Sequence record: NC_052653.1
Length of the DNA stretch: 64,000 bases
Reading direction: 5' to 3' (one strand)
Origin: Escherichia phage vB_vPM_PD06
In this document: positions 30,426 to 61,688 of the stretch, one piece after another
Position numbering within the stretch: position 1 is the stretch's first letter
Layout of the letters: each line of letters begins with the position of its first letter
The notes under the pieces: model-generated
What the model was told of the DNA's origin: nothing
Seen by the model: only the letters and a program-made list of their open reading frames with translations
Database searches by the model: none
Position numbers and translations under genes: made by a program

Positions 30426-30476
30426 AGGCTAACGTTAGGAGAGCTATGCTCTCCTTAAAAGAGAGAAGGAGAATTT

Positions 30477-30887
30477 ATGTCACTAATTAATACAACCATT
30501 TGGGCGACCGTAAGTATGTCTACCATTAAGGCTACACCGATCTGGAAAGAAATGGCTAAAAAGCACGGAGGAAAAATTCCTCACGAGTATCATAACACTA
30601 CATTGCGAGCAGCATTAGTAATGCTTGGTATGTCTACCGATGGACATTATACAGTAGAACGTGGTGTTAATATTCGTAGTAACAACAATCGACGTGTGGT
30701 GTTTGCAAATACTACATTGTATACTTTCCCAGTTCGACAAGACTATAAATATAAGCGAATCTATCAAGGTGTAGATATTTTGCACTTTGGAGAAGAAGAT
30801 TTTACAGGTTGGGGTAGCTCTCATATCAAAATGGAAGACTTCGGAAATGAACATGATCCATCACGAGATGATGATTCTGAATTCTAA
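30477..30887 (+). CDS. Hypothetical protein
   Basis: 136-aa ORF with AAGGAG upstream. Confidence 0.5.
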   Translation: MSLINTTIWATVSMSTIKATPIWKEMAKKHGGKIPHEYHNTTLRAALVMLGMSTDGHYTVERGVNIRSNNNRRVVFANTTLYTFPVRQDYKYKRIYQGVDILHFGEEDFTGWGSSHIKMEDFGNEHDPSRDDDSEF

Positions 30888-43307: not shown

Positions 43308-43510
43308 TGGCATACAATTACTATCTGGTATATTTTAACGAAACTAAGAAAAAAGACACAGGAACTAATGTTTATGCGGAATCCGAAGAACACGCAAAAG
43401 CTATTGGTTCAGTGCTTCTTTCTAGAATAGCAGGTGAAGAAATTCCTGTAGAGGCTATCTTTGCAGAAGTTGACCCTGGTATTCAAGAAGATGATATTAC
43501 CACTACTTAA
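43307..43510 (+). CDS. Hypothetical protein
   Basis: 67-aa ORF. Confidence 0.4.
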   Translation: MAYNYYLVYFNETKKKDTGTNVYAESEEHAKAIGSVLLSRIAGEEIPVEAIFAEVDPGIQEDDITTT

Positions 43511-43567
43511 CTGTTGACTTTAACATTAAGGTAGTGCATACTTCCTGCAACAGAACAGGAGGGTATT

Positions 43568-44230
43568 ATGAAGTTTGTACTGTATCATCGACTTTCTAAG
43601 AAGAAACAACAAGGCAACCAGTATGGTATAGAATCACAGGAAGCAGATATCCAACGCTTCCTGGATTCACAAGAAAACTATACTATTGTAGGTAGCTTTG
43701 CAGAGTTTTATTCTGGTAAAGGCGATTGGAAGCAACGTAGAGAGCTTGTAAAAGCTGTTAATCTTTGCAAAGAAACAGGTGCTACACTTGTTGTTGCTAA
43801 GGTTGACCGTCTTGGACGTAACACAGCTTCTGTTGCAACCTTGTTAGAGATGATTAATGTACGGATAGCAACTATGCCCTCCGCTGAAAATATGATAATA
43901 AATATTTTAGCAGTTCTGGCAGAAGAAGAGGCTCGTGCAATATCTGATCGTGTTAAGAAGAGCCTTAAGGTAGCAAAAGCGAAGGGAACGCTTCTTGGTG
44001 CAGCAAACCCTAAATACAAAAGAACAGATTATACGAAAACGGAAGAAGCAAAACGCTCAAAAGAGTTTGCGCTTTCTTTAAAAGATTCTTTAGTTGCATA
44101 CAGAGCTTGTAAAACGCCATATATGACGATTGCAAAGCATCTGAATGAATCAGGAAAGAGAACTATTCGTGGGAGTTTGTTCGATGCCAAAGCGGTACAA
44201 CGTCTTTGTGCAAAATTGAATATTAAATAA
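43568..44230 (+). CDS. Serine recombinase (resolvase/invertase family)
   Basis: Catalytic region YHRLSKKKQQGNQYGIESQ, LVVAKVDRLGRN, C-terminal HTH-like tail; 220 aa. Confidence 0.75.
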   Translation: MKFVLYHRLSKKKQQGNQYGIESQEADIQRFLDSQENYTIVGSFAEFYSGKGDWKQRRELVKAVNLCKETGATLVVAKVDRLGRNTASVATLLEMINVRIATMPSAENMIINILAVLAEEEARAISDRVKKSLKVAKAKGTLLGAANPKYKRTDYTKTEEAKRSKEFALSLKDSLVAYRACKTPYMTIAKHLNESGKRTIRGSLFDAKAVQRLCAKLNIK

Positions 44231-44454: not shown

Positions 44455-45027
44455 ATGCGTTTAGCTTTTAACGGGAAGATAAGCACAGCAAACATATTGT
44501 CAGCAGTAGGATTATTAGGTAAAAAATTTACACCTTTCAGTTTACCAGTTTGTGTAGATTTTGATCATGTGTTCGATATTAATAATCCTTCACGTTGTAT
44601 CGCCAGAAGTAATATTGATAACCCAAGTGAAAATCTGTTTTATATTACTAAACCATCCCAGGCAATTTTGAATCAATGGGAAGCAGGTCTGATTAAACCA
44701 GGTAAATATTTTGCATTACTACCTTGTAAATCATTGGCTATAGAGGACAGTCTAAACTATGCAAACAATCTTGTTGTTACAGCATTCATTGTCTCAGAAA
44801 AAGAAGAAACTGCGGCACTTGCAAATACTGTTAAATCTTTGTATGATGCTTTGGGTGTTACTTACACTACATTCGTTTGTGAAGATATTCCACATTGCGT
44901 TGAATTTGTAGTAAATGGTGTAACTGTATGTCGTGTAGAAACAACGCAAGATGAGGACGTTTTTATTACTGTAGCCGATGTAATATCTGAACCTGTGTTT
45001 AGTTACGCAGTTTCATTAACACATTAA
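44455..45027 (+). CDS. Hypothetical protein
   Basis: 190-aa ORF. Confidence 0.5.
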   Translation: MRLAFNGKISTANILSAVGLLGKKFTPFSLPVCVDFDHVFDINNPSRCIARSNIDNPSENLFYITKPSQAILNQWEAGLIKPGKYFALLPCKSLAIEDSLNYANNLVVTAFIVSEKEETAALANTVKSLYDALGVTYTTFVCEDIPHCVEFVVNGVTVCRVETTQDEDVFITVADVISEPVFSYAVSLTH

Positions 45028-45037
45028 GGAGAAGGGG

Positions 45038-45364
45038 ATGAAAATAACGACAGAACAGGCTTTAATAGACAAAGGAAGGGAAATCTTAGAAAGTCATTTG
45101 GAGGATATTCAAAGGACTCCAGGGTATCTCGGCTGGCGTATACAAGAAGCCGTCGATTTTCTACCCCGCAAAAATAAAGAGATTGAGGTAAGATCTCTAT
45201 TCCTCCTTGTTAAAGTAGATGGTGACGCTATATATAAAGATGTAGCGTCTCACATTGAACAAATAGAAGAAAAAGCCTACAAAGAATTTGCAGATCTTGT
45301 TGTAGAACATAATATAGAAGGTAAAGTTAATATCTTTATACTTATGGATTTTGAGGAGATTTGA
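45038..45364 (+). CDS. Hypothetical protein
   Basis: 108-aa ORF. Confidence 0.45.
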   Translation: MKITTEQALIDKGREILESHLEDIQRTPGYLGWRIQEAVDFLPRKNKEIEVRSLFLLVKVDGDAIYKDVASHIEQIEEKAYKEFADLVVEHNIEGKVNIFILMDFEEI

Positions 45365-46107
45365 TGCTAGTATATCAAGAAATTAGTGTAAAAGATGATC
45401 AAGACCTGTTTATTATTGGTGATTTACATGGTTGCTTTGATTTATACCAGAAAGGTGTTAATACTTTAGGTATCCGAGATCAAGATGTTGTTGTATCTTT
45501 AGGAGATCTTACAGATCGCGGCAAGCAGAATTTTCGTTGTACCGTTGAATTCACCAGAAAACTAAATCGCTATGCTATTCGTGGAAATCACGAAGATATG
45601 ATGATTAAAGGGTTGCTAGAAGGTGATAGGCGATATTACGAATGTTGGTTTCAGAACGGAGGCCATACAGTTCTAAACGAGTGTGGAGAAGAAGGTGCAA
45701 CTGCTCTTGCTTTGATGCTAGAAGACTTACCTGTTGTACTTGTTGTCAATTATCGTAATATGAAACTAGGCTTTATTCACGGTGGATATCCTTCAGTTTT
45801 GGAACATTTACCAGTGACAGAAGTTTTGCCATTTTGTTTGAATATGGATAAAGAGCAAGTTTCTCGATTCACAGAATCTTTAATGTGGGATCGTGATATG
45901 ATAGATTGCGCACTTGAAGGGATTCTTCTTCCTAGAGTTTCAGGAGTAGATTATGTATTTCACGGGCATTCTTATGTTCCTAAACCTGTAATTAGCAGTA
46001 ATAGGGTATATATGGATACTGGGTCTGTGTTCAATGGTAATTTAACCTTTGCATATTTTGATGATTCAAATACGTTACAATTTTATTCTACTTTAGAGGA
46101 GGACTAA
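45364..46107 (+). CDS. Ser/Thr protein phosphatase-type metallophosphatase
   Basis: GDLHGCFD, GDLTDRG, RGNHE motifs. Confidence 0.7.
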   Translation: MLVYQEISVKDDQDLFIIGDLHGCFDLYQKGVNTLGIRDQDVVVSLGDLTDRGKQNFRCTVEFTRKLNRYAIRGNHEDMMIKGLLEGDRRYYECWFQNGGHTVLNECGEEGATALALMLEDLPVVLVVNYRNMKLGFIHGGYPSVLEHLPVTEVLPFCLNMDKEQVSRFTESLMWDRDMIDCALEGILLPRVSGVDYVFHGHSYVPKPVISSNRVYMDTGSVFNGNLTFAYFDDSNTLQFYSTLEED

Positions 46108-46415
46108 TGTATAAAGTCACAATTAAAGAGACGGTAGGGAATATTACGAAAGAAACTACTATTGAAACGGAAGACGTTGAGTTAGTCAAAGAGCTTTTAT
46201 TTCCAAAATCAGAAATAAAAGATAATGACGAACAGTTGGATGAAGATAACGATACAGCAAGGGATAAATGGAAGAAACAACTAGCGGAGATTTGGAAAAA
46301 GCCTCAAGTAACGCCTCCATTTGATCCTCGTACACCTTATAACCCTTGGGAAATTGGAAGCCCTTGGTATACGTATCCTATTAATCCAATTGTTACTCCC
46401 AGTATTACTTGTTAA
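46107..46415 (+). CDS. Hypothetical protein
   Basis: 102-aa ORF. Confidence 0.4.
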   Translation: MYKVTIKETVGNITKETTIETEDVELVKELLFPKSEIKDNDEQLDEDNDTARDKWKKQLAEIWKKPQVTPPFDPRTPYNPWEIGSPWYTYPINPIVTPSITC

Positions 46416-46425
46416 GGAGAAAACC

Positions 46426-47004
46426 ATGAGCGATTTATTCTACACAGGTGTTGGTAGCAGAGATATTACAGACGAAGAATGGGACACTATGGTAGCTGTT
46501 GCAAAATGGTTATCTACATGGTTCATTTTGCGATCTGGTAAAGCAGAAGGTGCAGATTCCGCATTTGAATGCGGGGTATATGATAGTGGAAATAATACAA
46601 AGAAAGAAATATACATTCCTTGGCCTTCGTTTAAAGGTAATGAGATAGAGGGAGAGGTTATTGTTCTTGACAGACCAGATAGTGTAAACTATGCTCTAAC
46701 CTTGCAATATGCAAAAGAATTGCATCCGGCTTGGGACAGATTATCTCAAGGTGCTAAAAAATTACATCAAAGGAATATCCACCAAGTTCTTGGCAAAGAT
46801 CTTGAGAATCCAAAACCGTCTTGTTTTCTTTTAGCTTGTGCAAATACAGATAAAAATGGAGATCCTTTGGGTGGTACAAGAACAGCTTGGATGTTGGCTA
46901 AAAAGTTTAATGTTCCTTGTTTTAATATTCGAGGTAAAAGTAAAAAACAAATCTTTGAATTTATTAAACCTATTTTAGAGGAGAATGGTCTTGTCCAGAA
47001 ATAA
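46426..47004 (+). CDS. DprA/Smf-like (SLOG superfamily) protein, tentative
   Basis: ATG at 46426 with AAGGAG upstream; YTGVGSRD and RSGKAEGADSAFECG resemble DprA/LOG nucleotide-binding motifs. Confidence 0.4.
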   Translation: MSDLFYTGVGSRDITDEEWDTMVAVAKWLSTWFILRSGKAEGADSAFECGVYDSGNNTKKEIYIPWPSFKGNEIEGEVIVLDRPDSVNYALTLQYAKELHPAWDRLSQGAKKLHQRNIHQVLGKDLENPKPSCFLLACANTDKNGDPLGGTRTAWMLAKKFNVPCFNIRGKSKKQIFEFIKPILEENGLVQK

Positions 47005-47509
47005 TATAAGCGTCATCAAAGATAGCTTTATTGATGTAACAAACGATATTGTACCTACAATACAATATATAGTGGAGGCACAAGGTTTAAACTTCATACG
47101 TGATAAAGTTAAGATTGTTTTTCATAACACTCCAGGTTTTGTAACAGTAGGTTCAACAAAAACGCCGTGCACTACAGATCTGATTACTTTAGACAAAAAC
47201 TTAACACAAGAAGAAGTAGAAATTCTTAACCTCTATTGGTTAGGTTTTAAAAGATACGAGGATACAGCTTTATCCCGAATGTCAACTATTTTAGCTAATA
47301 TTCTGGTTCGGAAAATTTCTAAAATATGGGATGAAGAAAACCCAGATGAAATAGTTTTACACTTTGCTAAACCGGAAGATGGGGCATACGATATAGACAC
47401 ATCTGAAATGGCTTATGGGTTTATTATTTCTGGTAATGTCTTACAGATGGAATCTTTATTGTATGTTGAGACAGTAAAACACAATAACAATTACGAGGAG
47501 GTTGTATGA
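46985..47509 (+). CDS. Hypothetical protein
   Basis: 174-aa ORF. Confidence 0.45.
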   Translation: MVLSRNNISVIKDSFIDVTNDIVPTIQYIVEAQGLNFIRDKVKIVFHNTPGFVTVGSTKTPCTTDLITLDKNLTQEEVEILNLYWLGFKRYEDTALSRMSTILANILVRKISKIWDEENPDEIVLHFAKPEDGAYDIDTSEMAYGFIISGNVLQMESLLYVETVKHNNNYEEVV

Positions 47510-47763
47510 AAGGTTTAGAGTTTAACTTTGTAGATGCGTGGGAAGGATGGGATGAACTAGGAGTAGGGGATTTATGTTTTTATGATGTTACCTTGAAGGA
47601 AGAATACAAACATCTGGCTCCTAGTGAAGATTGCGATGTGATTCTATCTATTCTATTAAGTCAGTCTATAGTGCAATTCGATTTCTTAAAAGGTAGTGAA
47701 TGTATTGAAAGTAAAGCATTCCGTTTGGAAGTTTCTCTTGGTGAAGAAATTCCTGTAGAATAA
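47506..47763 (+). CDS. Hypothetical protein
   Basis: 85-aa ORF. Confidence 0.4.
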   Translation: MKGLEFNFVDAWEGWDELGVGDLCFYDVTLKEEYKHLAPSEDCDVILSILLSQSIVQFDFLKGSECIESKAFRLEVSLGEEIPVE

Positions 47764-47767
47764 TATA

Positions 47768-47790
47768 AACCCGCTTCGGCGGGTTTTTTG
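47768..47790 (+). terminator. Rho-independent terminator
   Basis: AAACCCGC-TTCG-GCGGGTTT followed by TTTTG. Confidence 0.8.
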
Positions 47791-47846
47791 TTGACAACAC
47801 CAGTTTTTTTCGAATAAACTACACAAAAACAGAAGAGGAGATTAGC

Positions 47847-48260
47847 ATGTATTATAGTGACTATTTTGTAAACCCAACAAAAGAACAACTTCAATCAGCA
47901 GTGGATAAGATGCAGATTGTAGTTAAAGAATGTGAGAAAATAAAAAAACAACTACAAGAAGAGACTGTTGTTGTTAGTAAATGGTTTGGTCTTAGAAAGA
48001 AGGTTGTTAGTAAACACAATATCATCCTGGAAAAAGCAAAAACGACAGGAACTAGTTACGCCTTACAAGGTTGGTTGCTAAATTACATTGATATAGAACA
48101 ACATTCTCTTCTGCACTGTTGGCTTCACAGTCCTAGTATTGAGGATCTCTTGTTCTGGTTATCGTGTGAATCTGTACTTTTAAATGAAAATGAGGCTTAC
48201 CGTTTAAACTTCTGCCTCAAGGCAGAATTACCAGCTAGTGTTAAGGAGAAGAAGCAATAA
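47847..48260 (+). CDS. Hypothetical protein
   Basis: 137-aa ORF with GGAG upstream. Confidence 0.45.
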   Translation: MYYSDYFVNPTKEQLQSAVDKMQIVVKECEKIKKQLQEETVVVSKWFGLRKKVVSKHNIILEKAKTTGTSYALQGWLLNYIDIEQHSLLHCWLHSPSIEDLLFWLSCESVLLNENEAYRLNFCLKAELPASVKEKKQ

Positions 48261-49249
48261 TGAAAGTTTTAAGTCTTTTTGATGGTATGTCAGGAGGAAT
48301 GCTTGCGCTAAAAAGTGCAGGTATTGAAGTAGATACATATTATGCTTCAGAATTAGACAAATTCGCCATAGCTGAAAGCCAAGCAAATTTTCCAGATATT
48401 ATTCAGTTAGGTGATGTTACAAAATGGAGAGAATGGGATATTCCGTGGGGAGAAATTGATCTTTTGTTAGGTGGTAGTCCGTGTCAAGGCTTCTCTTCTT
48501 CTGGTAAGGGTTTGAACTTTCAAGATCCGCGATCTAAACTGTTCTTTGAATATGTTGAAATTCTTGAACATATTAAAAAGTTTAACCCTAATGTTAAGTT
48601 CATGCTTGAAAACGTTAAGATGAAGGTGGAGTGGGAAAACGTGATCACAAGTTACTTAGGTGTTGATCCCGTATTCATTAACTCCGCAGATTTCACGGCA
48701 CAGAATAGACAACGTTTATACTGGTGCAATTGGGAAATAAAACCCTGGGCTATTACCAATGAAGTATTGCAAGATATTATCGAAGATGATAGTATTGTAG
48801 ACAGAGATAAGGCGTATTGCATAGATGCAAATTATGCTAAAGGTGGTAATATAGAACAGTATTTTGAAAAGAGTCGTAGACAACTAGCTTTTTATCCGGC
48901 AGCAATATATGGGCGTAGAATTAATGAAAATGGCAAACGTAGTACATCTAAAGCTGATCGTTTGGTACATTGCTTGGAAGTTCAGGACAGTGAAAAAACT
49001 CGTTGCCTCACGACTGTGCCGAAAGACGTACTATTAGCTTACATTCCACCTGGAAGATATCTGGATGCCTTTGAAAAATTGAGTGAAGGTGTGCATTATA
49101 GAAAGTTAACGGTTAAAGAGTGTTGCCGCTTACAAGGTGTTCCAGATGATTACTTTAAAGTGAGTAGTAACACACAAGCCTATAAGATGTTAGGTAATGG
49201 TTGGACTATACCTGTCATTGCACATATTCTTAAGTGTATGGAGGAATGA
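48260..49249 (+). CDS. dcm: DNA cytosine-5 methyltransferase
   Basis: Motif I LFDGMSGG, motif IV GGSPCQGFS, motif VI ENV; 329 aa. Confidence 0.8.
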   Translation: MKVLSLFDGMSGGMLALKSAGIEVDTYYASELDKFAIAESQANFPDIIQLGDVTKWREWDIPWGEIDLLLGGSPCQGFSSSGKGLNFQDPRSKLFFEYVEILEHIKKFNPNVKFMLENVKMKVEWENVITSYLGVDPVFINSADFTAQNRQRLYWCNWEIKPWAITNEVLQDIIEDDSIVDRDKAYCIDANYAKGGNIEQYFEKSRRQLAFYPAAIYGRRINENGKRSTSKADRLVHCLEVQDSEKTRCLTTVPKDVLLAYIPPGRYLDAFEKLSEGVHYRKLTVKECCRLQGVPDDYFKVSSNTQAYKMLGNGWTIPVIAHILKCMEE

Positions 49250-49372
49250 TGGAAACATTGTGGAAAGGCTGGAAGACTGCTCTGATAGCTTTTATAATTC
49301 CATTAACTTTTCTTGGTTGGTGTTTTTGGGAATTTATCTTTTGGTTAATTTCCCATATACATTGGGGGTAAT
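49247..49372 (+). CDS. Small membrane protein
   Basis: 41-aa hydrophobic ORF with GGAGGAA upstream. Confidence 0.35.
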
Positions 49373-49984
49373 ATGACTCAAAAAGTTGCATATCAAGTAG
49401 ATCGTGAAGATGGTGAAGGTAGTGTTGTAGTTTTTGATACACATGGTCTTGCAGCAAGACGCAAAGGCGCTTGTATGCTGGACATTGGTGGTGAAGATGA
49501 ATACTGCACTGTACGTAGAGTAAAAGAATTTGATCAATACGCTGAAAAAGGTTTTGTACCTGCGAAAGCACTATTAGAAGCTGGATGGTGGATACCTAGC
49601 GCACATGATTATGATATTTTGGAATCAGATACAGACGATTTTAACAGTGAGAATTTTGTTTTTTCTCTGGATGAAAAATGCGTTTGGAAAGATTGGGATG
49701 AAATGGAACGCCATGCTTATTTTATAAACGAAGCATTAGATCGTAAAACTTGGTTTGAGAATACAGTTAAAGCAGCGTATCCTCAATTTACTTTTACAGA
49801 ATTTTGGGGTGGCCCACACCATATTACTCATGTGGCATACTTCGAGTTCCCAGGCTCACGCTATAAAGGTACTGTCTATTGGGATTGGGACGAGGACAAA
49901 GAACCTTCTGCTCAAGACTTCCGTTGCTATGTTTGTCAAGGTGATCAAGAAGCCCTTGACAAGTACCTTAAAAGTCTGGTATAA
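49373..49984 (+). CDS. Hypothetical protein
   Basis: 203-aa ORF. Confidence 0.5.
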   Translation: MTQKVAYQVDREDGEGSVVVFDTHGLAARRKGACMLDIGGEDEYCTVRRVKEFDQYAEKGFVPAKALLEAGWWIPSAHDYDILESDTDDFNSENFVFSLDEKCVWKDWDEMERHAYFINEALDRKTWFENTVKAAYPQFTFTEFWGGPHHITHVAYFEFPGSRYKGTVYWDWDEDKEPSAQDFRCYVCQGDQEALDKYLKSLV

Positions 49985-50001
49985 TCCGTAAAACTTAACC
50001 A

Positions 50002-50026
50002 AAGCCCCAAGCAGGGGCTTTATTTG
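50002..50026 (+). terminator. Rho-independent terminator
   Basis: AAGCCCC-AAGC-AGGGGCTT followed by TATTTG. Confidence 0.65.
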
Positions 50027-50038
50027 TCTGGAGGATAT

Positions 50039-50569
50039 ATGGGTTTTGATGACATGTTATTATATGAGGAGGCTTGTGTGAAAGAAGCTATGGCTTTACC
50101 AGTTTTATCTATTGATATTACAACAGTAGACACTTTTTCAGATTGTGAAACGTGTGGATCGTATTCGTCTATTGTACATGAAGTTAGTGGGGATTTAGGC
50201 ACTTACGAAGATGGAGATTATGCAAGTTGTTTAGGTGATAATCGAGATGGTGAAGTGGCGAATGTTGCAAACTGGATTGCTTCTAAGTTAAAAGAAAGAA
50301 ATCGTCCGTTCCCTAATCTTCTTACACCAGAAGCTATGCTTAAAGCTGAACAAGAGATGTATGATTATGGTCATAAAGTAGATTATGACTATAATGATCC
50401 TAAATATAAAAAATTGAGTGACAAGTATTGGGAACTAGCTAATGCTTATGATAAATACTACTCTACAGAAAACATTGTTAAATTGTTTTTAGATTTTGGA
50501 GTAGAAATTAATTGGGATTTCGAAGAGGAAGAGCGTTACGACGCATCTTCTTGGGATGATGATTACTAA
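50039..50569 (+). CDS. Hypothetical acidic protein
   Basis: ATG at 50039 with GGAGGA upstream; Asp/Glu/Tyr-rich. Confidence 0.45.
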   Translation: MGFDDMLLYEEACVKEAMALPVLSIDITTVDTFSDCETCGSYSSIVHEVSGDLGTYEDGDYASCLGDNRDGEVANVANWIASKLKERNRPFPNLLTPEAMLKAEQEMYDYGHKVDYDYNDPKYKKLSDKYWELANAYDKYYSTENIVKLFLDFGVEINWDFEEEERYDASSWDDDY

Positions 50570-50580
50570 GAGGATATTGA

Positions 50581-51393
50581 ATGCGAAGAGTAATTTTTGT
50601 TAGTGGCGCAGGTTTAAGTGCAGACAGTGGGATTCGAACGTTCCGAACAGACACAGATAGTGGTCGTGCCTTATGGGAAGAATATGACTTAGAAGAGGTC
50701 TGCGATATTGGAGCTTTCCAAGCAGGTTATCGTGTGAGAACATCTCCAGATCTTCCAGTGGTCGGTGGTGTAGACGAGAACGGTATGGACTTATATGCCA
50801 AAACACACGAATTTTATAACAAAAGACGTGTTGAGCTTAAAGATGTACAACCTAATGCTGCACATATTCAAATAGCAAAGTGGTTTAAGGAATATCCTAA
50901 CCAAGTAGTAAACTTGACAACAAACGTCGATGATCTACTAGAGCGAGCAGGTGTGGACAGGGATTCTGTTATTCACGTGCACGGGTATCTCCCTGAAGTA
51001 GTTTACCGTATGCATCCTGGAGATTACAAAACACTGGTAGACATTGGTTACAATAGTATAAACATAGATGATTATAACTGGGTGAAGCCTAATGTTGTAT
51101 TTTTTGGTGAGGCTGCACCTTTGTATGCAGATATGGCTCACTTGTTTGATACTTTGACCATGCAAGATTTGGTTGTTGTAGTAGGATGTTCAAACCAAGT
51201 TATCAATTTTAATTGGGAATTATTCCCTGCACTTACTATGGGTACAAAAATGATTGTTGTTAACCCAGGAATTAATTACGAAGAAACTCTTCTTTACGAA
51301 GATAGAGGAGTCTTTGTTTATAGAGAAAAGGCAGCAGATGCTTTTAGCAATCCTGCTTTCATAAAAATGATAGAAGATCATTTGACTAAGTAA
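50581..51393 (+). CDS. Sir2 (sirtuin) family NAD+-dependent enzyme
   Basis: VIFVSGAGLSADSGIRTFR, TTNVDDLLERAG, HVHG, VVFFGE, VVVVGCS; no CxxC zinc module seen. Confidence 0.8.
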   Translation: MRRVIFVSGAGLSADSGIRTFRTDTDSGRALWEEYDLEEVCDIGAFQAGYRVRTSPDLPVVGGVDENGMDLYAKTHEFYNKRRVELKDVQPNAAHIQIAKWFKEYPNQVVNLTTNVDDLLERAGVDRDSVIHVHGYLPEVVYRMHPGDYKTLVDIGYNSINIDDYNWVKPNVVFFGEAAPLYADMAHLFDTLTMQDLVVVVGCSNQVINFNWELFPALTMGTKMIVVNPGINYEETLLYEDRGVFVYREKAADAFSNPAFIKMIEDHLTK

Positions 51394-51400
51394 CTTGACC

Positions 51401-51423
51401 AAGGGGCGAAAGCCCCTTTTCTT
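51401..51423 (+). terminator. Rho-independent terminator
   Basis: AAGGGGC-GAAA-GCCCCTTTT. Confidence 0.7.
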
Positions 51424-51436
51424 ATAGGAGAATATT

Positions 51437-51694
51437 ATGACCACAGAACAAATCGTTAAAGACCATTTTATGATGCACTACGTTTATTACTTCAATAATA
51501 ATCAACAGAAAGGTGAGGGATTTTGTTATCTATCCGCACAACAAGGTTTTGGTATCCGTCAAGCAGATATTAACGGAGCAGTGGCTGGAATTACAAAAGG
51601 CTTGGTTGCAAACCTTAAAGATAATGTTGTTGTTGTCCCAACGTGCATCTCTTATCTCTCAACCTGCCCTGAAGAAGATTTTATGCATTCCTAA
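51437..51694 (+). CDS. Hypothetical protein
   Basis: 85-aa ORF, last gene of plus-strand block. Confidence 0.4.
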   Translation: MTTEQIVKDHFMMHYVYYFNNNQQKGEGFCYLSAQQGFGIRQADINGAVAGITKGLVANLKDNVVVVPTCISYLSTCPEEDFMHS

Positions 51695-51760
51695 AACCTC
51701 CTGTAACGCATTCTAACGCACTTTTTATTTTAGTAATACGTTTCCCTATCTAATGCAAAC

Positions 51761-51797
51761 AAAAGCCCCTAGAAGTGATTCTAGGGGCTTTATTTTA
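51761..51797. terminator. Bidirectional rho-independent terminator between convergent blocks
   Basis: AGCCCCTAG-AAGTGATT-CTAGGGGCT flanked by A-run upstream and T-run downstream. Confidence 0.7.
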
Positions 51798-51869
51798 GTC
51801 TTCTGTAAAATATCCTATGACAACAATGATAAAGATGATTAACACTACGATACTCTCTAGTAAAGTCAT

Positions 51870-52091
51870 CTATAGATCTCGTTCATATAGTTCAATTATC
51901 AATTCATCCTCTGCTGTTATCGTACCAATTTGCCAAGTGTGAAGATAAACCTCTGTATAAGAGTGTATCTTACTATCTAACAAACACAGCCACGTATTGT
52001 TGCTTACCTTTTCTTGAATATGAACCTTAACCACGAAAGGGTGAGGGTTATCTACTAAGAAACCAATACTACCTTCTACAACTACAGACAT
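51870..52091 (-). CDS. Hypothetical protein
   Basis: 73-aa ORF, last gene of minus-strand early array. Confidence 0.4.
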   Translation of the reverse strand: MSVVVEGSIGFLVDNPHPFVVKVHIQEKVSNNTWLCLLDSKIHSYTEVYLHTWQIGTITAEDELIIELYERDL

Positions 52092-52144
52092 AATACCTCC
52101 TATTGTTTATGGTAAAAGTGTTTATAACAGATAAAGAGCGTATA

Positions 52145-52171
52145 TACAAGAAAACCCGCCGAAGCGGGTTT
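52145..52171 (-). terminator. Rho-independent terminator
   Basis: AAACCCGC-CGAA-GCGGGTTT hairpin with T-run following in minus sense. Confidence 0.65.
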
Positions 52172-52176
52172 ATGTG

Positions 52177-52500
52177 TTACACAATGTGTTTTGTTTTAAC
52201 GTGCGAAGATTTAAAAATCTTATTATGTGATGAAATACAACTATCACGGAACACATAATAGTTAACAACATCGGGCTTATCAACACAGAGTGTAACCACA
52301 ACTTTCATAGGTATAGATACATTCTCACGAAGAGTAACACTACCTTTCAAACGTTCAGATGAAATGTGAATCAAACCTTCTTTTTCATCAATGATAACTT
52401 CTTTAACATTTTTGAAATTATAACAAGAGTTATCAACATAAGATACCCTTGCTTTTGTTTGCTTCTGTTTAGGACGAGAACCAGTATTTATTTTTTGCAT
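52177..52500 (-). CDS. Hypothetical protein
   Basis: 107-aa ORF. Confidence 0.45.
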   Translation of the reverse strand: MQKINTGSRPKQKQTKARVSYVDNSCYNFKNVKEVIIDEKEGLIHISSERLKGSVTLRENVSIPMKVVVTLCVDKPDVVNYYVFRDSCISSHNKIFKSSHVKTKHIV

Positions 52501-52508
52501 AGTTTTCC

Positions 52509-52796
52509 TTATTTGCTTTCACGAGCAAAATAATAATTTTCATATTCATTACGTGTAACGATTTCTGGATGATCAGGTTCACCGTAACTAAGTTTAACTT
52601 CAGGATACACTTTGGTGTTGAACAGACACGTAACACCTCTCATATAATATCCTGTAGGACTTAAAACAACATCGTCTTCACTTACACTTGAGAATTTTAT
52701 TTCACCATTAGTATCTTTGACGACAATAAGAGCATGTTCAGGCCAATCAAGATTCTCTTCTTTTAGTTTTTCATAAACTTCTTGTACTAGTTCCAT
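52509..52796 (-). CDS. Hypothetical protein
   Basis: 95-aa ORF. Confidence 0.45.
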   Translation of the reverse strand: MELVQEVYEKLKEENLDWPEHALIVVKDTNGEIKFSSVSEDDVVLSPTGYYMRGVTCLFNTKVYPEVKLSYGEPDHPEIVTRNEYENYYFARESK

Positions 52797-52805
52797 ATTG
52801 CCTCC

Positions 52806-52979
52806 TCAGATTACAAATTTTTCTTCTTCTGGTTTCTCGTAGTTGGGAGAATAAACGTGGGATGGATTAAAACCTTTAAAGCTACCTCGCCCTTTTCGTG
52901 GACAATTGAACGTCTTAGCTTGGTGATCACCAAAAGATTTACCACAATGTACACATTTATAATTGGTATCTTTGAACAT
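52806..52979 (-). CDS. Small zinc-ribbon protein
   Basis: 57-aa ORF MFKDTNYKCVHCGKSF...FNCPRKGRG with GGAGAG upstream; chosen over the track ORF 52811-53008, which lies in another frame. Confidence 0.4.
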   Translation of the reverse strand: MFKDTNYKCVHCGKSFGDHQAKTFNCPRKGRGSFKGFNPSHVYSPNYEKPEEEKFVI

Positions 52980-53135
52980 TTTACTCTCCTTTGAAAGATA
53001 GGCTGCACAATAGTACAGCCTTTTAGAAAATTAGTGTTTAAATTTTTCGATTACTTCGTCAACTTTAGCGATGATAACATCCTGATACTTGTGACCAAAA
53101 TAACCAACAACAACACCAACAATAAACGTCATCAT

Positions 53136-53735
53136 TTACTTCTCCTTTTTAACTATAATGGCTTCTTCATTCAGAGTAAACAGCAAGGAAGATGTATCAC
53201 CAACACACCTTGCACCTGGAATGAGTTCTAAAATTTTAGAGGATATAGCAATAGTATCTTCATCCAGTACGTATTCCCCAGGTAACAATCTTAATGTTAT
53301 TGGAAAATCTACAGATGCCAAACCAGAGAACATCCCATCATTCAGAAGAATAACTTCTAAACTGCTATCTTCTTGTTGTGCATTATGCACTTTTTCAGGT
53401 AAGAAGTCAATACATTGATTTAAAATTTCTACATCTAATTCTACACCAGTCCTAGCCTTATAAACTCTAGCCAAATCTATGATCCGAGAATCAATGCTGG
53501 CGTAAGGAGATTCCAAGTGTTTTGGGTCAATAGGAGCAACGCGCAATTTACTATCGAGAGATATCCACGTTACAATCCACATTTCACCAACCCCAGGTTG
53601 ATCTCGCGCAGTAAGGAATTCTACTAATGCTCCAGGATTAGGCATTATGTAATCTTGTGTGATCAACATGTTCTTTACTCGCAAAAGCATTCCTGGCTTT
53701 AGCAAGCCCTTCTCACCACTCCAATATTCTTTCAT
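53136..53735 (-). CDS. Hypothetical protein
   Basis: 199-aa ORF. Confidence 0.5.
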   Translation of the reverse strand: MKEYWSGEKGLLKPGMLLRVKNMLITQDYIMPNPGALVEFLTARDQPGVGEMWIVTWISLDSKLRVAPIDPKHLESPYASIDSRIIDLARVYKARTGVELDVEILNQCIDFLPEKVHNAQQEDSSLEVILLNDGMFSGLASVDFPITLRLLPGEYVLDEDTIAISSKILELIPGARCVGDTSSLLFTLNEEAIIVKKEK

Positions 53736-53749
53736 TTTTACTCCTGATT

Positions 53750-54022
53750 TTAATGTCGTAGTTCACTAAACTTACAAACAAAGTGAACGTTAAGAAAAGT
53801 TAGTTTTCGATCTGGTGTAAACTCTGTTACTGTTTTATACACCTGGGCAATACCGAACCTGTTGACAGCAGGTACTGACAATTGGCTTATACATTTCATA
53901 GCTGATAGTTTTGCCTCTTCTTCAGATGCAAAATAAGTAAACATACCTTCTTCGTCAACTATAATTTCTTGTGTAACACAATCTACAAAACAAAAGAAAA
54001 CATTAGGTAAGTTTTCCGACAT
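53750..54022 (-). CDS. Hypothetical protein
   Basis: 90-aa ORF. Confidence 0.45.
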   Translation of the reverse strand: MSENLPNVFFCFVDCVTQEIIVDEEGMFTYFASEEEAKLSAMKCISQLSVPAVNRFGIAQVYKTVTEFTPDRKLTFLNVHFVCKFSELRH

Positions 54023-54023
54023 A

Positions 54024-54236
54024 TTAGTTGTTCCTGTACTTAGAGAACAAAGTATTGATTAACCAATCAGCAAACAATAGTCCAAGTGTACCAATACCGT
54101 AACCGATAAGCATAATGTAAGGCACTGCCTTATTTTCATTACCTGTCATCACTTCAGGAAAAATCAAAAATACAATACCGTTACCAACGATAATCCAGAA
54201 CATAAGAAACACAAAAACACGAAGCAACATTCCCAT
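54024..54236 (-). CDS. Small membrane protein
   Basis: 70 aa with two hydrophobic segments. Confidence 0.45.
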   Translation of the reverse strand: MGMLLRVFVFLMFWIIVGNGIVFLIFPEVMTGNENKAVPYIMLIGYGIGTLGLLFADWLINTLFSKYRNN

Positions 54237-54237
54237 A

Positions 54238-54420
54238 TTATTCTTCCTCCTTCACTTCTTCAACTTTACGAAGCATACGTTTATCAAATGTAGCTTTCTG
54301 TAGTTGCTCATTAACATCAAACCACACCACTTCGCAAGTATCGTAAGTAGATACCATTACAGTCATTAACATTTCTTCGCTGGCAAGACGTACAATATCA
54401 CCTGTTTTAATATTTACCAT
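54238..54420 (-). CDS. Hypothetical protein
   Basis: 60-aa ORF. Confidence 0.4.
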   Translation of the reverse strand: MVNIKTGDIVRLASEEMLMTVMVSTYDTCEVVWFDVNEQLQKATFDKRMLRKVEEVKEEE

Positions 54421-54824
54421 AACTCCTCCAGAAGTTTACCAAGTTTAGTTTTAAATTCATTATCCCACGCTATGCTAACTATGTCAAGATCACCTTGTGA
54501 ATTACGTTTTGTCTCTAAATAGTAGCCACCACGCTCATATCGGTGTTTTATATGCTCGATCAGACGTTCTTTATCACTCTTAGATAAATAATCATCAAAC
54601 TCCCCATTGAAAAGATCTAAGATTGTTTGTCTATTATCTCCTAATTGAGTGATTCTAAAGCTAATCAGACACCCCTGTAAACCTATATCTGTTTGTTTAA
54701 GAGAAAACCCATGACCAAAGCCGCCTGTGACTATAACAAGCGGTTTTCCTGTGATAGAGCTTTTAATAACATCTTGCTTAGGTTCTGCCAAAGATGTTAG
54801 AAACCCTTTTAACCATTTGAACAT
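54414..54824 (-). CDS. Hypothetical protein
   Basis: 136-aa ORF. Confidence 0.5.
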   Translation of the reverse strand: MFKWLKGFLTSLAEPKQDVIKSSITGKPLVIVTGGFGHGFSLKQTDIGLQGCLISFRITQLGDNRQTILDLFNGEFDDYLSKSDKERLIEHIKHRYERGGYYLETKRNSQGDLDIVSIAWDNEFKTKLGKLLEELW

Positions 54825-54929
54825 AAACCCTCCTGTGTGGCGTGGCTTTGCCTAAGCGCCGAAGGCGCGGATCAAATATAAGCTGAATTTATTACGCCCA
54901 GGTAGCCAGGGCGCATAAATATCAGAAAT

Positions 54930-55178
54930 TTACCATCGAATAACTATTCGAGTAAAGTTTTCATCGTAATGAGATGTTTCTGTATCAATAAAAGTTGAAA
55001 AACCTTCAGCATCCAAGTTAACTTTTACAAAAGTTGGATAAAGCGTGTATATAGCAACTTCTCTGTCTCCATCTTTAGCTGCTCTCTCAATATACGAGTA
55101 GATATTTTGTAGACTATCCTTTGCTTTGTTAAGTTCTGCGTTTTCTGCCAGTTCTCTCATTTTATCTGCTACAGTCAT
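54930..55178 (-). CDS. Hypothetical protein
   Basis: 82-aa ORF. Confidence 0.45.
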   Translation of the reverse strand: MTVADKMRELAENAELNKAKDSLQNIYSYIERAAKDGDREVAIYTLYPTFVKVNLDAEGFSTFIDTETSHYDENFTRIVIRW

Positions 55179-55447
55179 TTGTCAGTATCCTTTTCAATAA
55201 ATCCTGTGGTTTTACAAGGCACACATTCGTACATTTGCCCAACATCTGCAACCACCCAACCCATTCCACTGCAATAAGGGCAGATTGTTTTGTTCTCTTT
55301 AGCATACACAGCCAGAAGTCTTTCTTCTAGCTTATTGTAATCAGCAAGAAGAACATAATCCCCTTCTGGATCTGGTACAATATCACATTGACCAGCAGCA
55401 CCTTGGCTGTACACCTCTAAGTCATATCGTGTAACCATTATTCCCAC
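55175..55447 (-). CDS. Small zinc-ribbon-like protein
   Basis: CPYCSGMG ... CVPCKTTG paired CxxC motifs. Confidence 0.45.
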   Translation of the reverse strand: MGIMVTRYDLEVYSQGAAGQCDIVPDPEGDYVLLADYNKLEERLLAVYAKENKTICPYCSGMGWVVADVGQMYECVPCKTTGFIEKDTDK

Positions 55448-55656
55448 TCCGCAATCAGTTTTGGATTTTCTGCACGAGAATAGAATGTTGTAATGTCACC
55501 GTAAGTGTACTCTTGTTCCGACAGTTTTACAAGAGAGATCATTTCACGATCTGGAGTACCGGAGATCCAATCGAACACAGCAACACCACGAGGTGTTACA
55601 TAGAAACCAGATGTATTACCAGTAAACTTATCTTTTGCTTTATATAATTTGTACAC
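55438..55656 (-). CDS. Hypothetical protein
   Basis: 72-aa ORF. Confidence 0.4.
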   Translation of the reverse strand: MYKLYKAKDKFTGNTSGFYVTPRGVAVFDWISGTPDREMISLVKLSEQEYTYGDITTFYSRAENPKLIAEWE

Positions 55657-55863
55657 TTTCTACTCCTCATAGATAAAATCTATTAAAAACCTGCTATCAA
55701 TCGGTACAAACAGTTTTACTTTTCGTAAAAAACATGCTACCCTAATCTTATATACCGAGCGATAGCGAGGTAGAGAATATTCCATGTTATACATGGAAAG
55801 AGTATATGTAATGTTACTAACTCTATAACTAACTATATACTCTTTATATCTTACTTACTACTC

Positions 55864-56127
55864 TTATTGAAGTTCAAAGATATCTCCATCTCCATCATAT
55901 CCATACTCTAACTCTCCTGTATCATATAATACAATAAAGTCTGTATCATCTTCAATAAAAGATTTAGCATAATCTGCTAACTCTTCATTATCTTCATAAC
56001 CTTCCAGGTACTCAATACGACCATTGATACACTTAGCTGCAACAACTCCTGGGCCATTGCTTGGAGTCCACTCACTGTATACTCGCATGCCTAATTCTTT
56101 AATCATTGTTTGTCTCCTCATAATCAA
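55864..56127 (-). CDS. Hypothetical acidic protein
   Basis: 87-aa ORF. Confidence 0.45.
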   Translation of the reverse strand: MIMRRQTMIKELGMRVYSEWTPSNGPGVVAAKCINGRIEYLEGYEDNEELADYAKSFIEDDTDFIVLYDTGELEYGYDGDGDIFELQ

Positions 56128-56323
56128 TGTAGTTGTAACATTTATTCTTTAAGAAATCTTCTGCTTGTTTATTGTGTTTTAGAATGGTGCACTTCTCTAT
56201 ATTATGTTCTACATTGTTGTGTAGATTGTATAAATTAGATGCACCATACAGGATACCAATTAACAAAAGCAAAAAGATTGCTGTTGATAACAAAAATTGT
56301 TGCAACTTGTTTACAGACTTCAT
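56099..56323 (-). CDS. Small membrane protein, paralog of 61109-61348
   Basis: N-terminal TM segment; shares C..KH...AE.FL...C..Y..Y pattern with 61109-61348. Confidence 0.45.
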   Translation of the reverse strand: MKSVNKLQQFLLSTAIFLLLLIGILYGASNLYNLHNNVEHNIEKCTILKHNKQAEDFLKNKCYNYIDYEETNND

Positions 56324-56376
56324 AAACCCTCCTTATCGTTAGTACACATTGATACTAACAAGAAGTTAAGATCGTG

Positions 56377-56550
56377 TCAACATCTTTGTGTTAATTTTAT
56401 CCACTGTTCACATTCTTCTTTTGTGTCATACTCTACAGGCTTTCCTGTATCATTTCCACAACCATCTCCGAATGTAGCCCACCAGGAGAATAGAAAACAA
56501 GTTTCTCTTACTCTCCACTTATTGGCATAAGGTACAACATAATAACTCAT
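56377..56550 (-). CDS. Small Cys/Trp-rich protein
   Basis: 57-aa ORF not in track; fills gap in gene array. Confidence 0.3.
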   Translation of the reverse strand: MSYYVVPYANKWRVRETCFLFSWWATFGDGCGNDTGKPVEYDTKEECEQWIKLTQRC

Positions 56551-56798
56551 AGGATTGTGATCCTTAGTTCATTTTCTAAAGTATGTCTCACACATTCTTT
56601 GAAATTGTTATCAATATAAACCACACGTACCCCATGAGGTGTTTCTTTACATTCAAACACATTATATACAGTGTCAGATAAGACATGTTGTACGTTTACT
56701 TGTCCAATACCATTTTTAACCACAACCATTACTTTCAGTAAACTTGTATGGTTTTTAACTTCATCTTCTACGTATGCGACAACATCTTTGATATTCAT
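56547..56798 (-). CDS. Hypothetical protein, paralog of N-terminal domain of 62832-63293
   Basis: VKNHTSLLKV...GIGQVNVQHVLSDTVYNVFECK aligns with VKEHSSLLDV...VGIVCVRHILSETRYEVFRAK. Confidence 0.5.
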   Translation of the reverse strand: MNIKDVVAYVEDEVKNHTSLLKVMVVVKNGIGQVNVQHVLSDTVYNVFECKETPHGVRVVYIDNNFKECVRHTLENELRITIL

Positions 56799-57518: not shown

Positions 57519-57519
57519 A

Positions 57520-59123: not shown

Positions 59124-59133
59124 CTTACTCTCC

Positions 59134-60804: not shown

Positions 60805-60850
60805 AAACCCTCCTATTTATATATCAAGAAACACAAAAGAATAACATCTA

Positions 60851-61099: not shown

Positions 61100-61108
61100 A
61101 CTTCCCTC

Positions 61109-61679: not shown

Positions 61680-61688
61680 GATCTATCC

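What the first reader, a model, noticed from the sequence alone, without database searches (positions are those of the whole stretch)
43510..44230. Small serine recombinase in a virulent-type genome, with an upstream inverted repeat
The ORF at 43568-44230 has the resolvase/invertase catalytic region (RLS...QYGIESQ, LVVAKVDRLGRN) and a C-terminal HTH-like tail, with no integrase-sized C-terminal domain. The leader contains an inverted repeat CTGTTG ... CAACAG (43510-43553). Roles could include concatemer resolution, inversion of a switchable segment elsewhere in the genome, or a domesticated regulator.
Basis: partly seen in the sequence, partly recalled or inferred. Interest (0 to 1): 0.5.

Follow-up and report, generated by a model that had tools for sequence, protein, structure and literature searches.

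The report
Short serine recombinase of phi92-like phage
The gene is a real, probably active small serine recombinase that all phi92-like virulent coliphages carry and databases already label "DNA invertase"; nothing supports inversion or integration, the reported upstream inverted repeat is chance, and the enzyme's target site is still unknown.

Summary
The window is the first 64 kb (reverse complement) of a phi92-like Justusliebigvirus, a roughly 148-kb virulent myovirus. ORF 43568-44230 encodes a 220-aa serine recombinase. It keeps the crucial catalytic residues (Y6, R8, S10, E46 for D36, R81, R84), and dN/dS is about 0.05.

It is neither a Hin/Gin-type invertase nor a Tn3-type resolvase. 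The C-terminal tail is the first half of the large-serine-recombinase "Recombinase" domain, with no zinc ribbon. At least 150 sequence clusters share this roughly 220-aa layout, including single recombinases on small plasmids.

The CTGTTG/CAACAG repeat exists, but 21-28% of comparable stretches have one and relatives do not keep it. The leader conserves two other things:
- a sigma-70-type promoter, in 15 of 16 leaders;
- a hairpin pairing the ribosome-binding site with an anti-SD tract, in 8-9 of 10 leaders at the same genomic position but only 2 of 82 window genes.

Fifty-three sequenced relatives are colinear over about 134 of 148.8 kb. Inverted repeats are at chance level, and 5,426 E. coli genomes hold no prophage copy.

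In Phapecoctavirus the gene sits elsewhere, and in the phAPEC8 lineage it is a pseudogene, so it is accessory. The best guess is a tightly controlled, early, resolvase-type enzyme acting on one unidentified site. It is ordinary, of modest interest, and already annotated.

The parts
43568..44230 (+). Serine recombinase gene, 220 aa plus stop codon
   Evidence: ORF list. Pfam PF00239 at 8e-22. PHROG 125 at 1e-31 and PHROG 95 at 1.5e-25. At least 99% amino-acid identity in 53 Justusliebigvirus records. dN/dS about 0.05 against the 78% relative.
43568..43990 (+). Catalytic domain and long helix E (aa 1-141), with Y6, R8, S10, Q24, E46, R57, D80, R81, R84, E121, R128
   Evidence: These are invariant or near-invariant columns of the 33-sequence alignment A1. 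Profile alignment to 3guv, Tn3 and gamma-delta resolvase places them on Y6/R8/S10, D36, R45, D67/R68/R71, E118 and R125. AF2 helix 108-138.
44045..44215 (+). C-terminal helical DNA-binding tail (about aa 160-216), equal to the first half of the large-serine-recombinase 'Recombinase' domain
   Evidence: The family motif IAxxLNxxGxxTxxGxxWxxxxVxRL appears in A1. PF07508 is hit by 24 of 33 family members. The hits cover profile positions about 4-51 of 102, and four members score above the gathering cut-off. The window protein itself has no direct hit.
43514..43542 (+). Sigma-70-type promoter-like site, TTGACT-17 nt-CATACT
   Evidence: Consensus scan. TTGAC lies at -52 to -59 from the ATG in 15 of 16 orthologous leaders, with a variable spacer and an xAxAxT -10. 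The pattern occurs 5 times in the window against 1.08 expected.
43541..43562 (+). Hairpin pairing an anti-SD tract CTTCCTG (43541-43547) with the ribosome-binding site CAGGAGG (43556-43562)
   Evidence: Predicted fold: -9.8 kcal/mol, z = -2.7. The same architecture appears with different arm sequences in 8-9 of 10 leaders at the same genomic position. Only 2 of 82 SD-bearing ORFs in the window have such a hairpin, and this is the strongest.
43511..43553 (.).
43501..43536 (.). Imperfect 15-nt inverted repeat across the upstream stop codon and the promoter spacer, judged not to be conserved
   Evidence: Found. Phage alia (about 98% nucleotide identity over this region, recombinase protein identical) has three substitutions in one arm and no compensating change in the other.

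Best explanation
Shown: the ORF encodes a catalytically competent small serine recombinase. It belongs to a widespread but uncharacterised family of about 220 aa. The layout is a resolvase-type catalytic domain with a large-serine-recombinase-style N-terminal motif, then helix E, then only the first HTH-like half of the 'Recombinase' domain. It is a conserved but accessory gene of phi92-like virulent myoviruses.

Inferred: it is transcribed early by host RNA polymerase from its own sigma-70-type promoter. Its translation is held down by a hairpin that buries the Shine-Dalgarno sequence. The 5' arm of that hairpin abuts the -10 box, so transcripts started at this promoter probably lack it. Only read-through transcripts from upstream would then be silenced, the same logic as IS10 fold-back inhibition.

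Most speculative: the enzyme most likely acts as a resolvase-type recombinase on a single, still unidentified site in phage DNA. It would make monomeric circles from replicating multimers, or help circularise the genome, which has short 343-bp direct terminal repeats. It does not appear to act as an invertase or an integrase.
For: Identity and activity:
- Pfam, PHROG and PDB-sequence hits.
- The six residues crucial in Tn3 resolvase (Y6, R8, S10, D36, R68, R71; PMC2794168) are all kept, as Y6, R8, S10, E46, R81 and R84. They are invariant or near-invariant in the family.
- dN/dS is about 0.05.
- The gene is intact in 53 of 53 Justusliebigvirus records.

Architecture:
- PF07508 first-half hits.
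- The top Foldseek hit is the Bxb1 integrase.
- The best 150 cluster representatives are nearly all 210-245 aa and align end to end.

Resolvase-type leaning:
- Full-length homologues at about 35% identity are the only recombinase on 6.4-kb and 7.3-kb plasmids, one beside rep and ParA/RHH genes.
- There is no inversion polymorphism among 53 genomes over about 134 of 148.8 kb.
- Inverted-repeat pairs are at chance level, 5 observed against 0-9 in shuffles.
- There is no copy in 5,426 complete E. coli genomes.

Regulation: a conserved promoter and SD hairpin.

Genome ends: a 343-bp direct terminal repeat is annotated in UAB_1 and is present at 63658-64000.
Against: - No recombination site has been identified.
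- The 57-nt leader is too short for a full res site, and nothing palindromic is conserved in it.
- The plasmid context is circumstantial, at only about 35% identity.
- A phage that packages from concatemers has no obvious need for a resolvase.
- The gene is a pseudogene in the phAPEC8/Schickermooser lineage. In Phapecoctavirus it sits at another locus while the Justusliebigvirus slot is empty. It is therefore dispensable and may be partly selfish.
- The transcription start site is predicted, not measured, so the read-through-protection idea is untested.
- About 10% of the genome was not covered by the colinearity test.
Confidence: 0.5

Rival explanations
1. It is a DNA invertase of the Gin/Cin/Hin type, as GenBank and PHROG label it. 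It would flip a segment, for example tail-fibre genes or a promoter, to switch host range or expression.
For: PHROG 125 'DNA invertase' is the best PHROG hit, and many records carry that name. One distant homologue (P0043, 50% identity) lies just downstream of a tailspike gene.
Against: All 53 Justusliebigvirus genomes are colinear over about 134 of 148.8 kb, including the whole tail-fibre module. No excess of inverted repeats flanks segments of 30-8000 bp. The protein has no HTH_7 domain. The NCBIfam Mpi invertase model scores 33.5 bits against a cut-off of 272.
Confidence: 0.07
2. It is a selfish, self-promoted single-gene cassette. It persists by moving between intergenic slots of related phages and gives the phage little or no benefit.
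For: The gene with its own promoter occupies different slots in Justusliebigvirus and Phapecoctavirus. Its absence at the other slot is exact: 46 bp holding a terminator. The copy in phAPEC8/Schickermooser has decayed through six small deletions. Tight translational silencing resembles transposase control.
Against: The position is stable in relatives from 100% down to 60% identity, and in a similar neighbourhood in Shewanella phage 1/4. Purifying selection is strong. The junctions carry no terminal repeats or target duplications. The gene is present in 53 of 53 Justusliebigvirus records.
Confidence: 0.15
3. It acts on host or other foreign DNA rather than on the phage genome. Targets could be host invertible or excisable elements, plasmids or competing prophages. 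Its role would be takeover or competition.
For: No site was found in the phage genome. The promoter is early and host-type. The gene is accessory.
Against: There is no positive evidence at all. No PADLOC match was found. The host range of these phages is broad, which argues against a single conserved host site.
Confidence: 0.1
4. It is a domesticated DNA-binding regulator that no longer recombines DNA.
For: The tail is a small HTH-like domain, and no sites were found. In Schickermooser only the C-terminal 128-aa ORF survives.
Against: Every catalytic residue is invariant or near-invariant across a family that diverges to 31% identity. Such conservation is not expected once catalysis is lost.
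Confidence: 0.06
5. It is an integrase that allows hidden lysogeny or a carrier state.
For: Some records call it 'integrase'. PHROG 95 (integrase) is hit at 1.5e-25. The N-terminal motif and half of the Recombinase domain are of the large-serine-recombinase type.
Against: The zinc-ribbon and coiled-coil domains that large serine integrases use to select att sites are missing. Blastn found no match in 5,426 complete E. coli genomes. Authors report these phages as virulent (PMC10269720).
Confidence: 0.03

Closest known systems
Large serine recombinases and integrases (Bxb1, phiC31, TP901-1, A118/LI)
   Same: The N-terminal motif Y-x-R-x-S followed by about 12 residues and S-x-x-x-Q aligns with the large-serine-recombinase catalytic domain 3guv. 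The tail matches the first half of their Recombinase domain PF07508. Bxb1 is the top Foldseek hit.
   Different: This protein has 220 aa, against 450-600. It lacks the second half of the Recombinase domain, the zinc ribbon and the coiled coil. No att sites were found and there is no lysogeny.
Small serine recombinases: Tn3/gamma-delta and Sin resolvases; Hin/Gin/Cin invertases
   Same: The size, the catalytic domain with all key residues, helix E and a small helical DNA-binding tail.
   Different: The tail is not HTH_7. No res site with accessory subsites was found, and no gix/hix-type inverted sites. No inversion was seen. The NCBIfam invertase and resolvase models score far below their cut-offs.
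Uncharacterised 'recombinase family proteins' of about 220 aa on small plasmids (for example Synechococcus elongatus pIITB3_2 and Phaeobacter piscinae pP18_i)
   Same: End-to-end homology at about 35% identity, including the tail. Each is the only recombinase on the replicon, one beside rep and ParA/RHH genes. The Synechococcus gene also has a strong inverted repeat that includes its SD-like GAGGG.
   Different: They are on plasmids, not in a virulent phage. They are untested experimentally, so the multimer-resolution role is itself an inference.
Cre/loxP of phage P1 (functional analogy only; recalled from memory)
   Same: A phage-encoded site-specific recombinase that can circularise a terminally redundant genome and resolve dimers.
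   Different: Cre is a tyrosine recombinase of a temperate phage-plasmid. No site has been found here in the 343-bp terminal repeat.
IS10 transposase fold-back inhibition (recalled from memory)
   Same: A hairpin buries the ribosome-binding site. Its 5' arm lies upstream of the gene's own transcription start, so only read-through transcripts are silenced.
   Different: The start site here is only predicted, and no antisense RNA or Dam control was examined.

Membership tests
Serine recombinase superfamily (Pfam PF00239 catalytic domain) | Match to the Resolvase catalytic-domain model above the curated cut-off | tested here: met
   78.3 bits against a cut-off of 23.3, aa 4-141 on profile positions 2-144 of 145.
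Serine recombinase superfamily (Pfam PF00239 catalytic domain) | Nucleophilic Ser and the residues crucial in Tn3 resolvase (Y6, R8, S10, D36, R68, R71) | tested here: met
   Y6, R8, S10, E46 (a conservative D-to-E change), R81 and R84 are present and invariant or near-invariant in 33 homologues. The residue list is from PMC2794168.
Serine recombinase superfamily (Pfam PF00239 catalytic domain) | Site-specific recombination activity on a defined site | not testable with these tools
   This needs biochemistry or genetics. No site was identified.
DNA invertases (Hin/Gin/Cin/Pin; Mpi) | C-terminal HTH_7-type DNA-binding domain, or a match to an invertase family model | tested here: not met
   Pfam reports only PF00239 at E<=1. 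NCBIfam Mpi scores 33.5 bits against a cut-off of 272.
DNA invertases (Hin/Gin/Cin/Pin; Mpi) | A segment flanked by inverted recombination sites and found in both orientations | tested here: not met
   The 53 genomes are colinear over about 90% of the genome. Inverted-repeat pairs are at chance level.
Tn3/gamma-delta-type resolvases | A res site with several dimer-binding subsites next to the gene | tested here: not met
   The leader is 57 nt. Only the promoter hexamers and the SD hairpin are conserved across 16 leaders.
Large serine recombinases (integrases) | A complete Recombinase domain plus a zinc-ribbon domain with a coiled coil | tested here: not met
   The protein ends at about profile position 50 of 102 of PF07508. 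No further domain is present and the length is 220 aa.
Large serine recombinases (integrases) | Integration into a host attB site (prophage state) | tested here: not met
   No blastn match in 5,426 complete E. coli genomes.
Short (about 220 aa) 'half Recombinase-domain' serine recombinases (unnamed family) | End-to-end homology to proteins of about 210-245 aa with the same two-part layout | tested here: met
   The best 150 of 1.84 billion cluster representatives are nearly all 210-245 aa and align over query residues about 2-215. Alignment A1. Plasmid homologues.
IS607-like serine transposases | N-terminal MerR-type HTH followed by a C-terminal catalytic domain | tested here: not met
   Here the catalytic domain is N-terminal, at aa 4-141. 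ISC1926 TnpA is only a weak hit to the catalytic domain.

The most novel reading that the evidence does not exclude
An early-expressed, translationally gated 'mini' serine recombinase is a replication accessory of a strictly virulent myovirus. It would act on one site, possibly in or near the 343-bp terminal repeat, to circularise the incoming genome or to release monomer circles as rolling-circle templates. That would be a Cre/loxP-like job done by a serine enzyme in a lytic phage.
Probability: 0.12. Interest if true: 0.6.

Novelty: new member of a known kind. Interest (0 to 1): 0.3.

Why it matters
phi92-like phages are candidates for phage therapy, and genome screens flag any 'recombinase', 'integrase' or 'invertase' gene as a safety concern.

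Three results give that flag a reasoned answer. The gene lacks the domains needed for integration. It has no prophage copies in E. coli. It is linked to no invertible segment. The database label 'DNA invertase' should therefore be replaced by 'serine recombinase, function unknown'.

The short half-Recombinase-domain family is large and untested. A defined site for any member would add a compact recombinase to the toolbox.

The biological question of why a strictly lytic phage keeps a site-specific recombinase under strong selection remains open, and the experiments listed would test it.

Tried and rejected
Rejected on the chance rate, the lack of conservation and the overlap with the -35 box.
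- **The better 15-nt imperfect repeat at 43501-43536.** Rejected. Phage alia carries three uncompensated substitutions in one arm. No second copy occurs in the window.
- **Paired gix- or res-like sites.** None appeared among the long inverted repeats of the window. In the composite 148.8-kb genome the count equals that of shuffles.
- **Inversion polymorphism.** Six 19-25-kb megablast comparisons against all phage records found none. The apparent second 'places' were record ends, or direct intergenic repeats of 60-100 bp.
- **A 31-nt string at 45288-45318.** It looked like a hybrid of two distant sites sharing the core TCTACA. All three are in-frame coding matches, and one match is not kept in phage alia. 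I treat it as coincidence.
- **Consensus folding of the leaders.** RNAalifold on a MAFFT alignment gave no structure, because the arms were out of register. I used per-sequence folds instead.
- **Defence-system and named-family libraries.** PADLOC gave nothing, and NCBIfam gave only sub-threshold hits.
- **Literature.** Only annotation-level remarks were found, for example 'resolvase for concatemers' for phage SKA64 (PMC10282059). No experiment on this gene was found.
- **Upstream repeat of the Synechococcus plasmid homologue.** I first read it as res-like. It contains the SD-like GAGGG and may be an RNA stem instead, so I do not count it as a site.

Full report
**What the window is.** A 3-kb piece around the finding matches 53 phage records at 95-99.8% identity, all of them phi92-like Justusliebigvirus (Stephanstirmvirinae; about 145-150 kb). 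Several records, including phi92, PD114, PHB05, VEcB and W22, begin exactly where the window ends. Positions 63658-64000 are 98% identical to the 343-bp 'left end direct terminal repeat' annotated in Salmonella phage UAB_1. The window is therefore the reverse complement of the first 64 kb of such a genome. The finding lies in the nucleotide-metabolism and early-middle gene block. The local order is HslV-like peptidase, Dam-like methyltransferase, two small ORFs, the recombinase, a small ORF, a 190-aa ORF, then a Ser/Thr phosphatase and a DprA-like gene.

**The observation.** ORF 43568-44230 (+) is real and encodes 220 aa. It matches the Pfam Resolvase catalytic domain well above the cut-off (78.3 bits, aa 4-141). 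It also matches PHROG 125 'DNA invertase' and PHROG 95 'integrase' and solved serine recombinases.

I aligned 33 homologues that diverge down to 31% identity. The following columns are invariant: Q24, E46, G50, R57, D80, R81, R84, E121 and R128. Y6, R8 and S10 are at least 90% conserved. A profile-to-PDB alignment puts YxRxS on the YTRVS of the large-serine-recombinase catalytic domain 3guv. It puts the other residues on D36, R45, D67/R68/R71, E118 and R125 of Tn3 and gamma-delta resolvase.

The six residues found crucial in Tn3 resolvase are Y6, R8, S10, D36, R68 and R71 (PMC2794168). All are present here, with one conservative D-to-E change. Against the 78%-identical Klebsiella phage gene, dN is 0.185 and dS is saturated, giving dN/dS of about 0.05. 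The enzyme is very probably active.

**What kind of serine recombinase.** Pfam finds no HTH_7 or other domain in the tail of the window protein. The tail is nevertheless conserved across the family, with the motif IAxxLNxxGxxTxxGxxWxxxxVxRL.

Of the 33 members, 24 hit Pfam 'Recombinase' PF07508, the domain that follows the catalytic domain in large serine recombinases. The hits cover only profile positions about 4-51 of 102, and the proteins end there. Four distant members score above the gathering cut-off.

The N-terminal motif, with about 12 residues between the nucleophile and SxxxQ, is also of the large-serine-recombinase type. The AF2 model is confident (pLDDT 88) and shows a resolvase-like core, a long helix E and four short C-terminal helices. 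Its best Foldseek match is the Bxb1 integrase, followed by gamma-delta resolvase and Sin.

NCBIfam models for CcrB, the Mpi invertase, YneB and XisF are hit only far below their cut-offs. This layout is not a one-off truncation. The best 150 of 1.84 billion cluster representatives are nearly all 210-245 aa and align end to end at 34-43% identity. The protein therefore belongs to a large, unnamed family of short serine recombinases with half a Recombinase domain. It is not a member of the invertase, Tn3-resolvase or integrase families.

**The upstream repeat.** CTGTTG (43511-43516) and CAACAG (43548-43553) are there. A perfect 6-nt inverted repeat occurs in 21% of shuffles of the leader and in 28% of random 57-nt pieces of the window.

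I collected 16 orthologous leaders, from GenBank phages and from metagenomic contigs at 88 to 44% protein identity. Its left arm is simply CTG plus the start of a -35 box.

Two things are conserved instead. The first is TTGAC(A/T), 17 nt and an xAxAxT hexamer, lying 52-59 nt before the ATG in 15 of 16 leaders, with a freely varying spacer. That is the footprint of a sigma-70-type promoter. The same pattern occurs 5 times in the window against 1.08 expected, including in the early small-gene cluster.

The second is a hairpin in which a pyrimidine tract just after the -10 pairs with the Shine-Dalgarno sequence. Here the arms are CTTCCTG (43541-43547) and CAGGAGG (43556-43562), at -9.8 kcal/mol. 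In relatives the arms differ but the pairing is kept:
- CUCCUCA / UGAGGAG
- CUCCUCU / AGAGGAG
- CUCCUCUU / AAGAGGAG
- CCUCUAAUCA / UGAUUAGGGG
- GACACUUCUA / UAGGAGUGUC

Eight or nine of the ten leaders at the same genomic position fold this way, with z-scores as low as -6.6. The four leaders from other genomic contexts do not. Only 2 of 82 SD-bearing ORFs in the window have such a hairpin, and this one is the strongest.

The 5' arm abuts the -10, so a transcript started at this promoter should lack it. The inference is that only read-through transcripts are silenced, as in IS10. This step is inferred, because the start site was not measured. In some relatives the hairpin is followed by a T-run and may also terminate upstream transcription.

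**Tests of the proposed roles: inversion.** I compared six blocks with every phage record:
- window 1-25000;
- window 25001-50000;
- window 45001-64000;
- the PD114 tail-fibre module;
- PD114 93600-115599;
- PD114 125355-150354.

In all 53 Justusliebigvirus genomes the match is a single colinear place. The exceptions occur where a record's ends cut the match, one case that local blastn showed to be colinear, and the right-end region. There the second places are explained by direct intergenic repeats of 60-100 bp.

This covers about 134 of 148.8 kb. In a composite genome, inverted-repeat pairs with arms of at least 18 nt lying 30-8000 bp apart number 5, against 0-9 (mean 5.5) in shuffles. Two of the five are palindromic terminators. 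There is no support for an invertase.

**Tests of the proposed roles: integration.** The region has no blastn match in 5,426 complete E. coli genomes. The domains that integrases use for att-site selection are absent.

**Tests of the proposed roles: resolution.** This cannot be tested by looking for repeats, because one site per genome copy is enough. Indirect support comes from the plasmid relatives. Full-length homologues at about 35% identity are the only recombinase on a 6.4-kb Synechococcus plasmid and on a 7.3-kb Phaeobacter plasmid, the latter beside rep and ParA/RHH genes.

**Conservation and dispensability.** The slot methyltransferase, 67-aa ORF, recombinase, 63-aa ORF, 190-aa ORF, phosphatase is kept in relatives from 100% down to 60% identity. 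In Shewanella phage 1/4 the gene lies in a similar neighbourhood, close to HslV-family, DNA ligase and DprA-like genes.

In Phapecoctavirus ukendt that slot is empty. The flanking small ORFs are separated by 46 bp that hold a terminator. A 57%-identical recombinase, again with its own promoter, sits about 15 kb away among small early genes.

In Schickermooser the copy has six small deletions in its first 230 nt. Its annotation states that the surviving ORF is identical to that of phAPEC8. The gene is thus an accessory, self-promoted unit that can be lost. A partly selfish nature cannot be excluded.

**Literature.** I found only annotation-level statements. Phage SKA64's homologue is called a resolvase 'probably for keeping concatemers as single molecules' (PMC10282059). 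Another study states that no integrase or excisionase was found in these phages (PMC10269720). No experiment on this gene turned up.

**Verdict.** The ORF call is right and the enzyme is probably active. The inverted repeat that drew attention is chance. The leader holds a conserved promoter and an SD-masking hairpin.

The common database label 'DNA invertase' is not supported, and neither is 'integrase'. The most likely role is a tightly controlled, early, resolvase-type reaction on one unidentified site. My confidence in that role is only moderate. The main rivals are a selfish cassette and a host-directed enzyme.

This is a new member of a known kind, already annotated in public records, and of modest interest.

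Noticed in passing
window 63658-64000 (- strand); also L001 40717-41857: The window ends at the genome's physical left end, the 343-bp direct terminal repeat annotated in phage UAB_1. The repeat holds two direct copies, 195 bp apart, of ATGCAAATGATAATCATTATC. By my recollection of the consensus this is a near-perfect E. coli Fur box (17 of 19). More copies lie in the adjacent 1.8-kb non-coding stretch in phage alia. This could mean iron-responsive control of the early region.
   Followed up: partly
L012 1394-2046 (Schickermooser); L003 2995-3666 (ukendt): The Phapecoctavirus copy of the recombinase is a pseudogene in Schickermooser, and by its annotation in phAPEC8 too. Six deletions (-1, -1, -7, -1, -2, -7) are crowded into the catalytic N-terminus, while the C-terminal 128-aa ORF stays intact.
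   Followed up: yes
window 45288-45318, 9027-9045, 56196-56213: A 31-nt string reads as an exact hybrid of the reverse complements of two distant sites (19 nt and 18 nt) that share the core TCTACA. All three code in frame (ADLVV(D/E) / VEHNIE), and one match is not kept in phage alia. It is probably coincidence or a micro-mosaic. Two overlapping perfect matches are still unexpected by chance.
   Followed up: partly
window 47765-47787 and 52151-52173: The same perfect 23-nt palindromic terminator-like hairpin, ATAAACCCGCTTCGGCGGGTTTT, occurs twice, 4.4 kb apart.
   Followed up: no
L022 1-1669 (metagenomic contig SRR7533044_13197): A 50%-identical homologue (P0043) lies directly downstream of a 665-aa tailspike gene and a 64-aa ORF. 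This is the only context seen that hints at a link with host-range genes.
   Followed up: no
L024 25537-33511 (PD114 right-end region): A family of direct intergenic repeats of 60-100 bp (75-90% identity) lies among the small right-end genes. Other records annotate it as 'repeat_region'. These may be early promoters or regulatory elements.
   Followed up: no
records MG065639, MG065645, MG065656, MG065689: Four records named 'Campylobacter phage' (host C. jejuni) are about 98% identical to E. coli Justusliebigvirus genomes across the whole window. The host label looks doubtful.
   Followed up: no
window 44455-45027: RefSeq records name the 190-aa ORF two genes downstream 'histidyl tRNA synthetase'. 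It has no NCBIfam or PADLOC match at E<=0.01, and it is far too short for a synthetase. The name looks unreliable.
   Followed up: partly
window 30445-30479 (leader of ORF 30477-30887): This is the only other gene in the window with a strong SD-sequestering hairpin (-7.8 kcal/mol).
   Followed up: no
L005 3427-3490 (Synechococcus plasmid pIITB3_2): The plasmid homologue has a perfect 16-nt inverted repeat, CTTGTAACACCCTCAA / TTGAGGGTGTTACAAG, with 32 nt between the arms. It ends 4 nt before the start codon and includes an SD-like GAGGG. The RNA fold is -29.4 kcal/mol (z = -4.75). It could be a DNA site or another SD-masking stem.
   Followed up: partly
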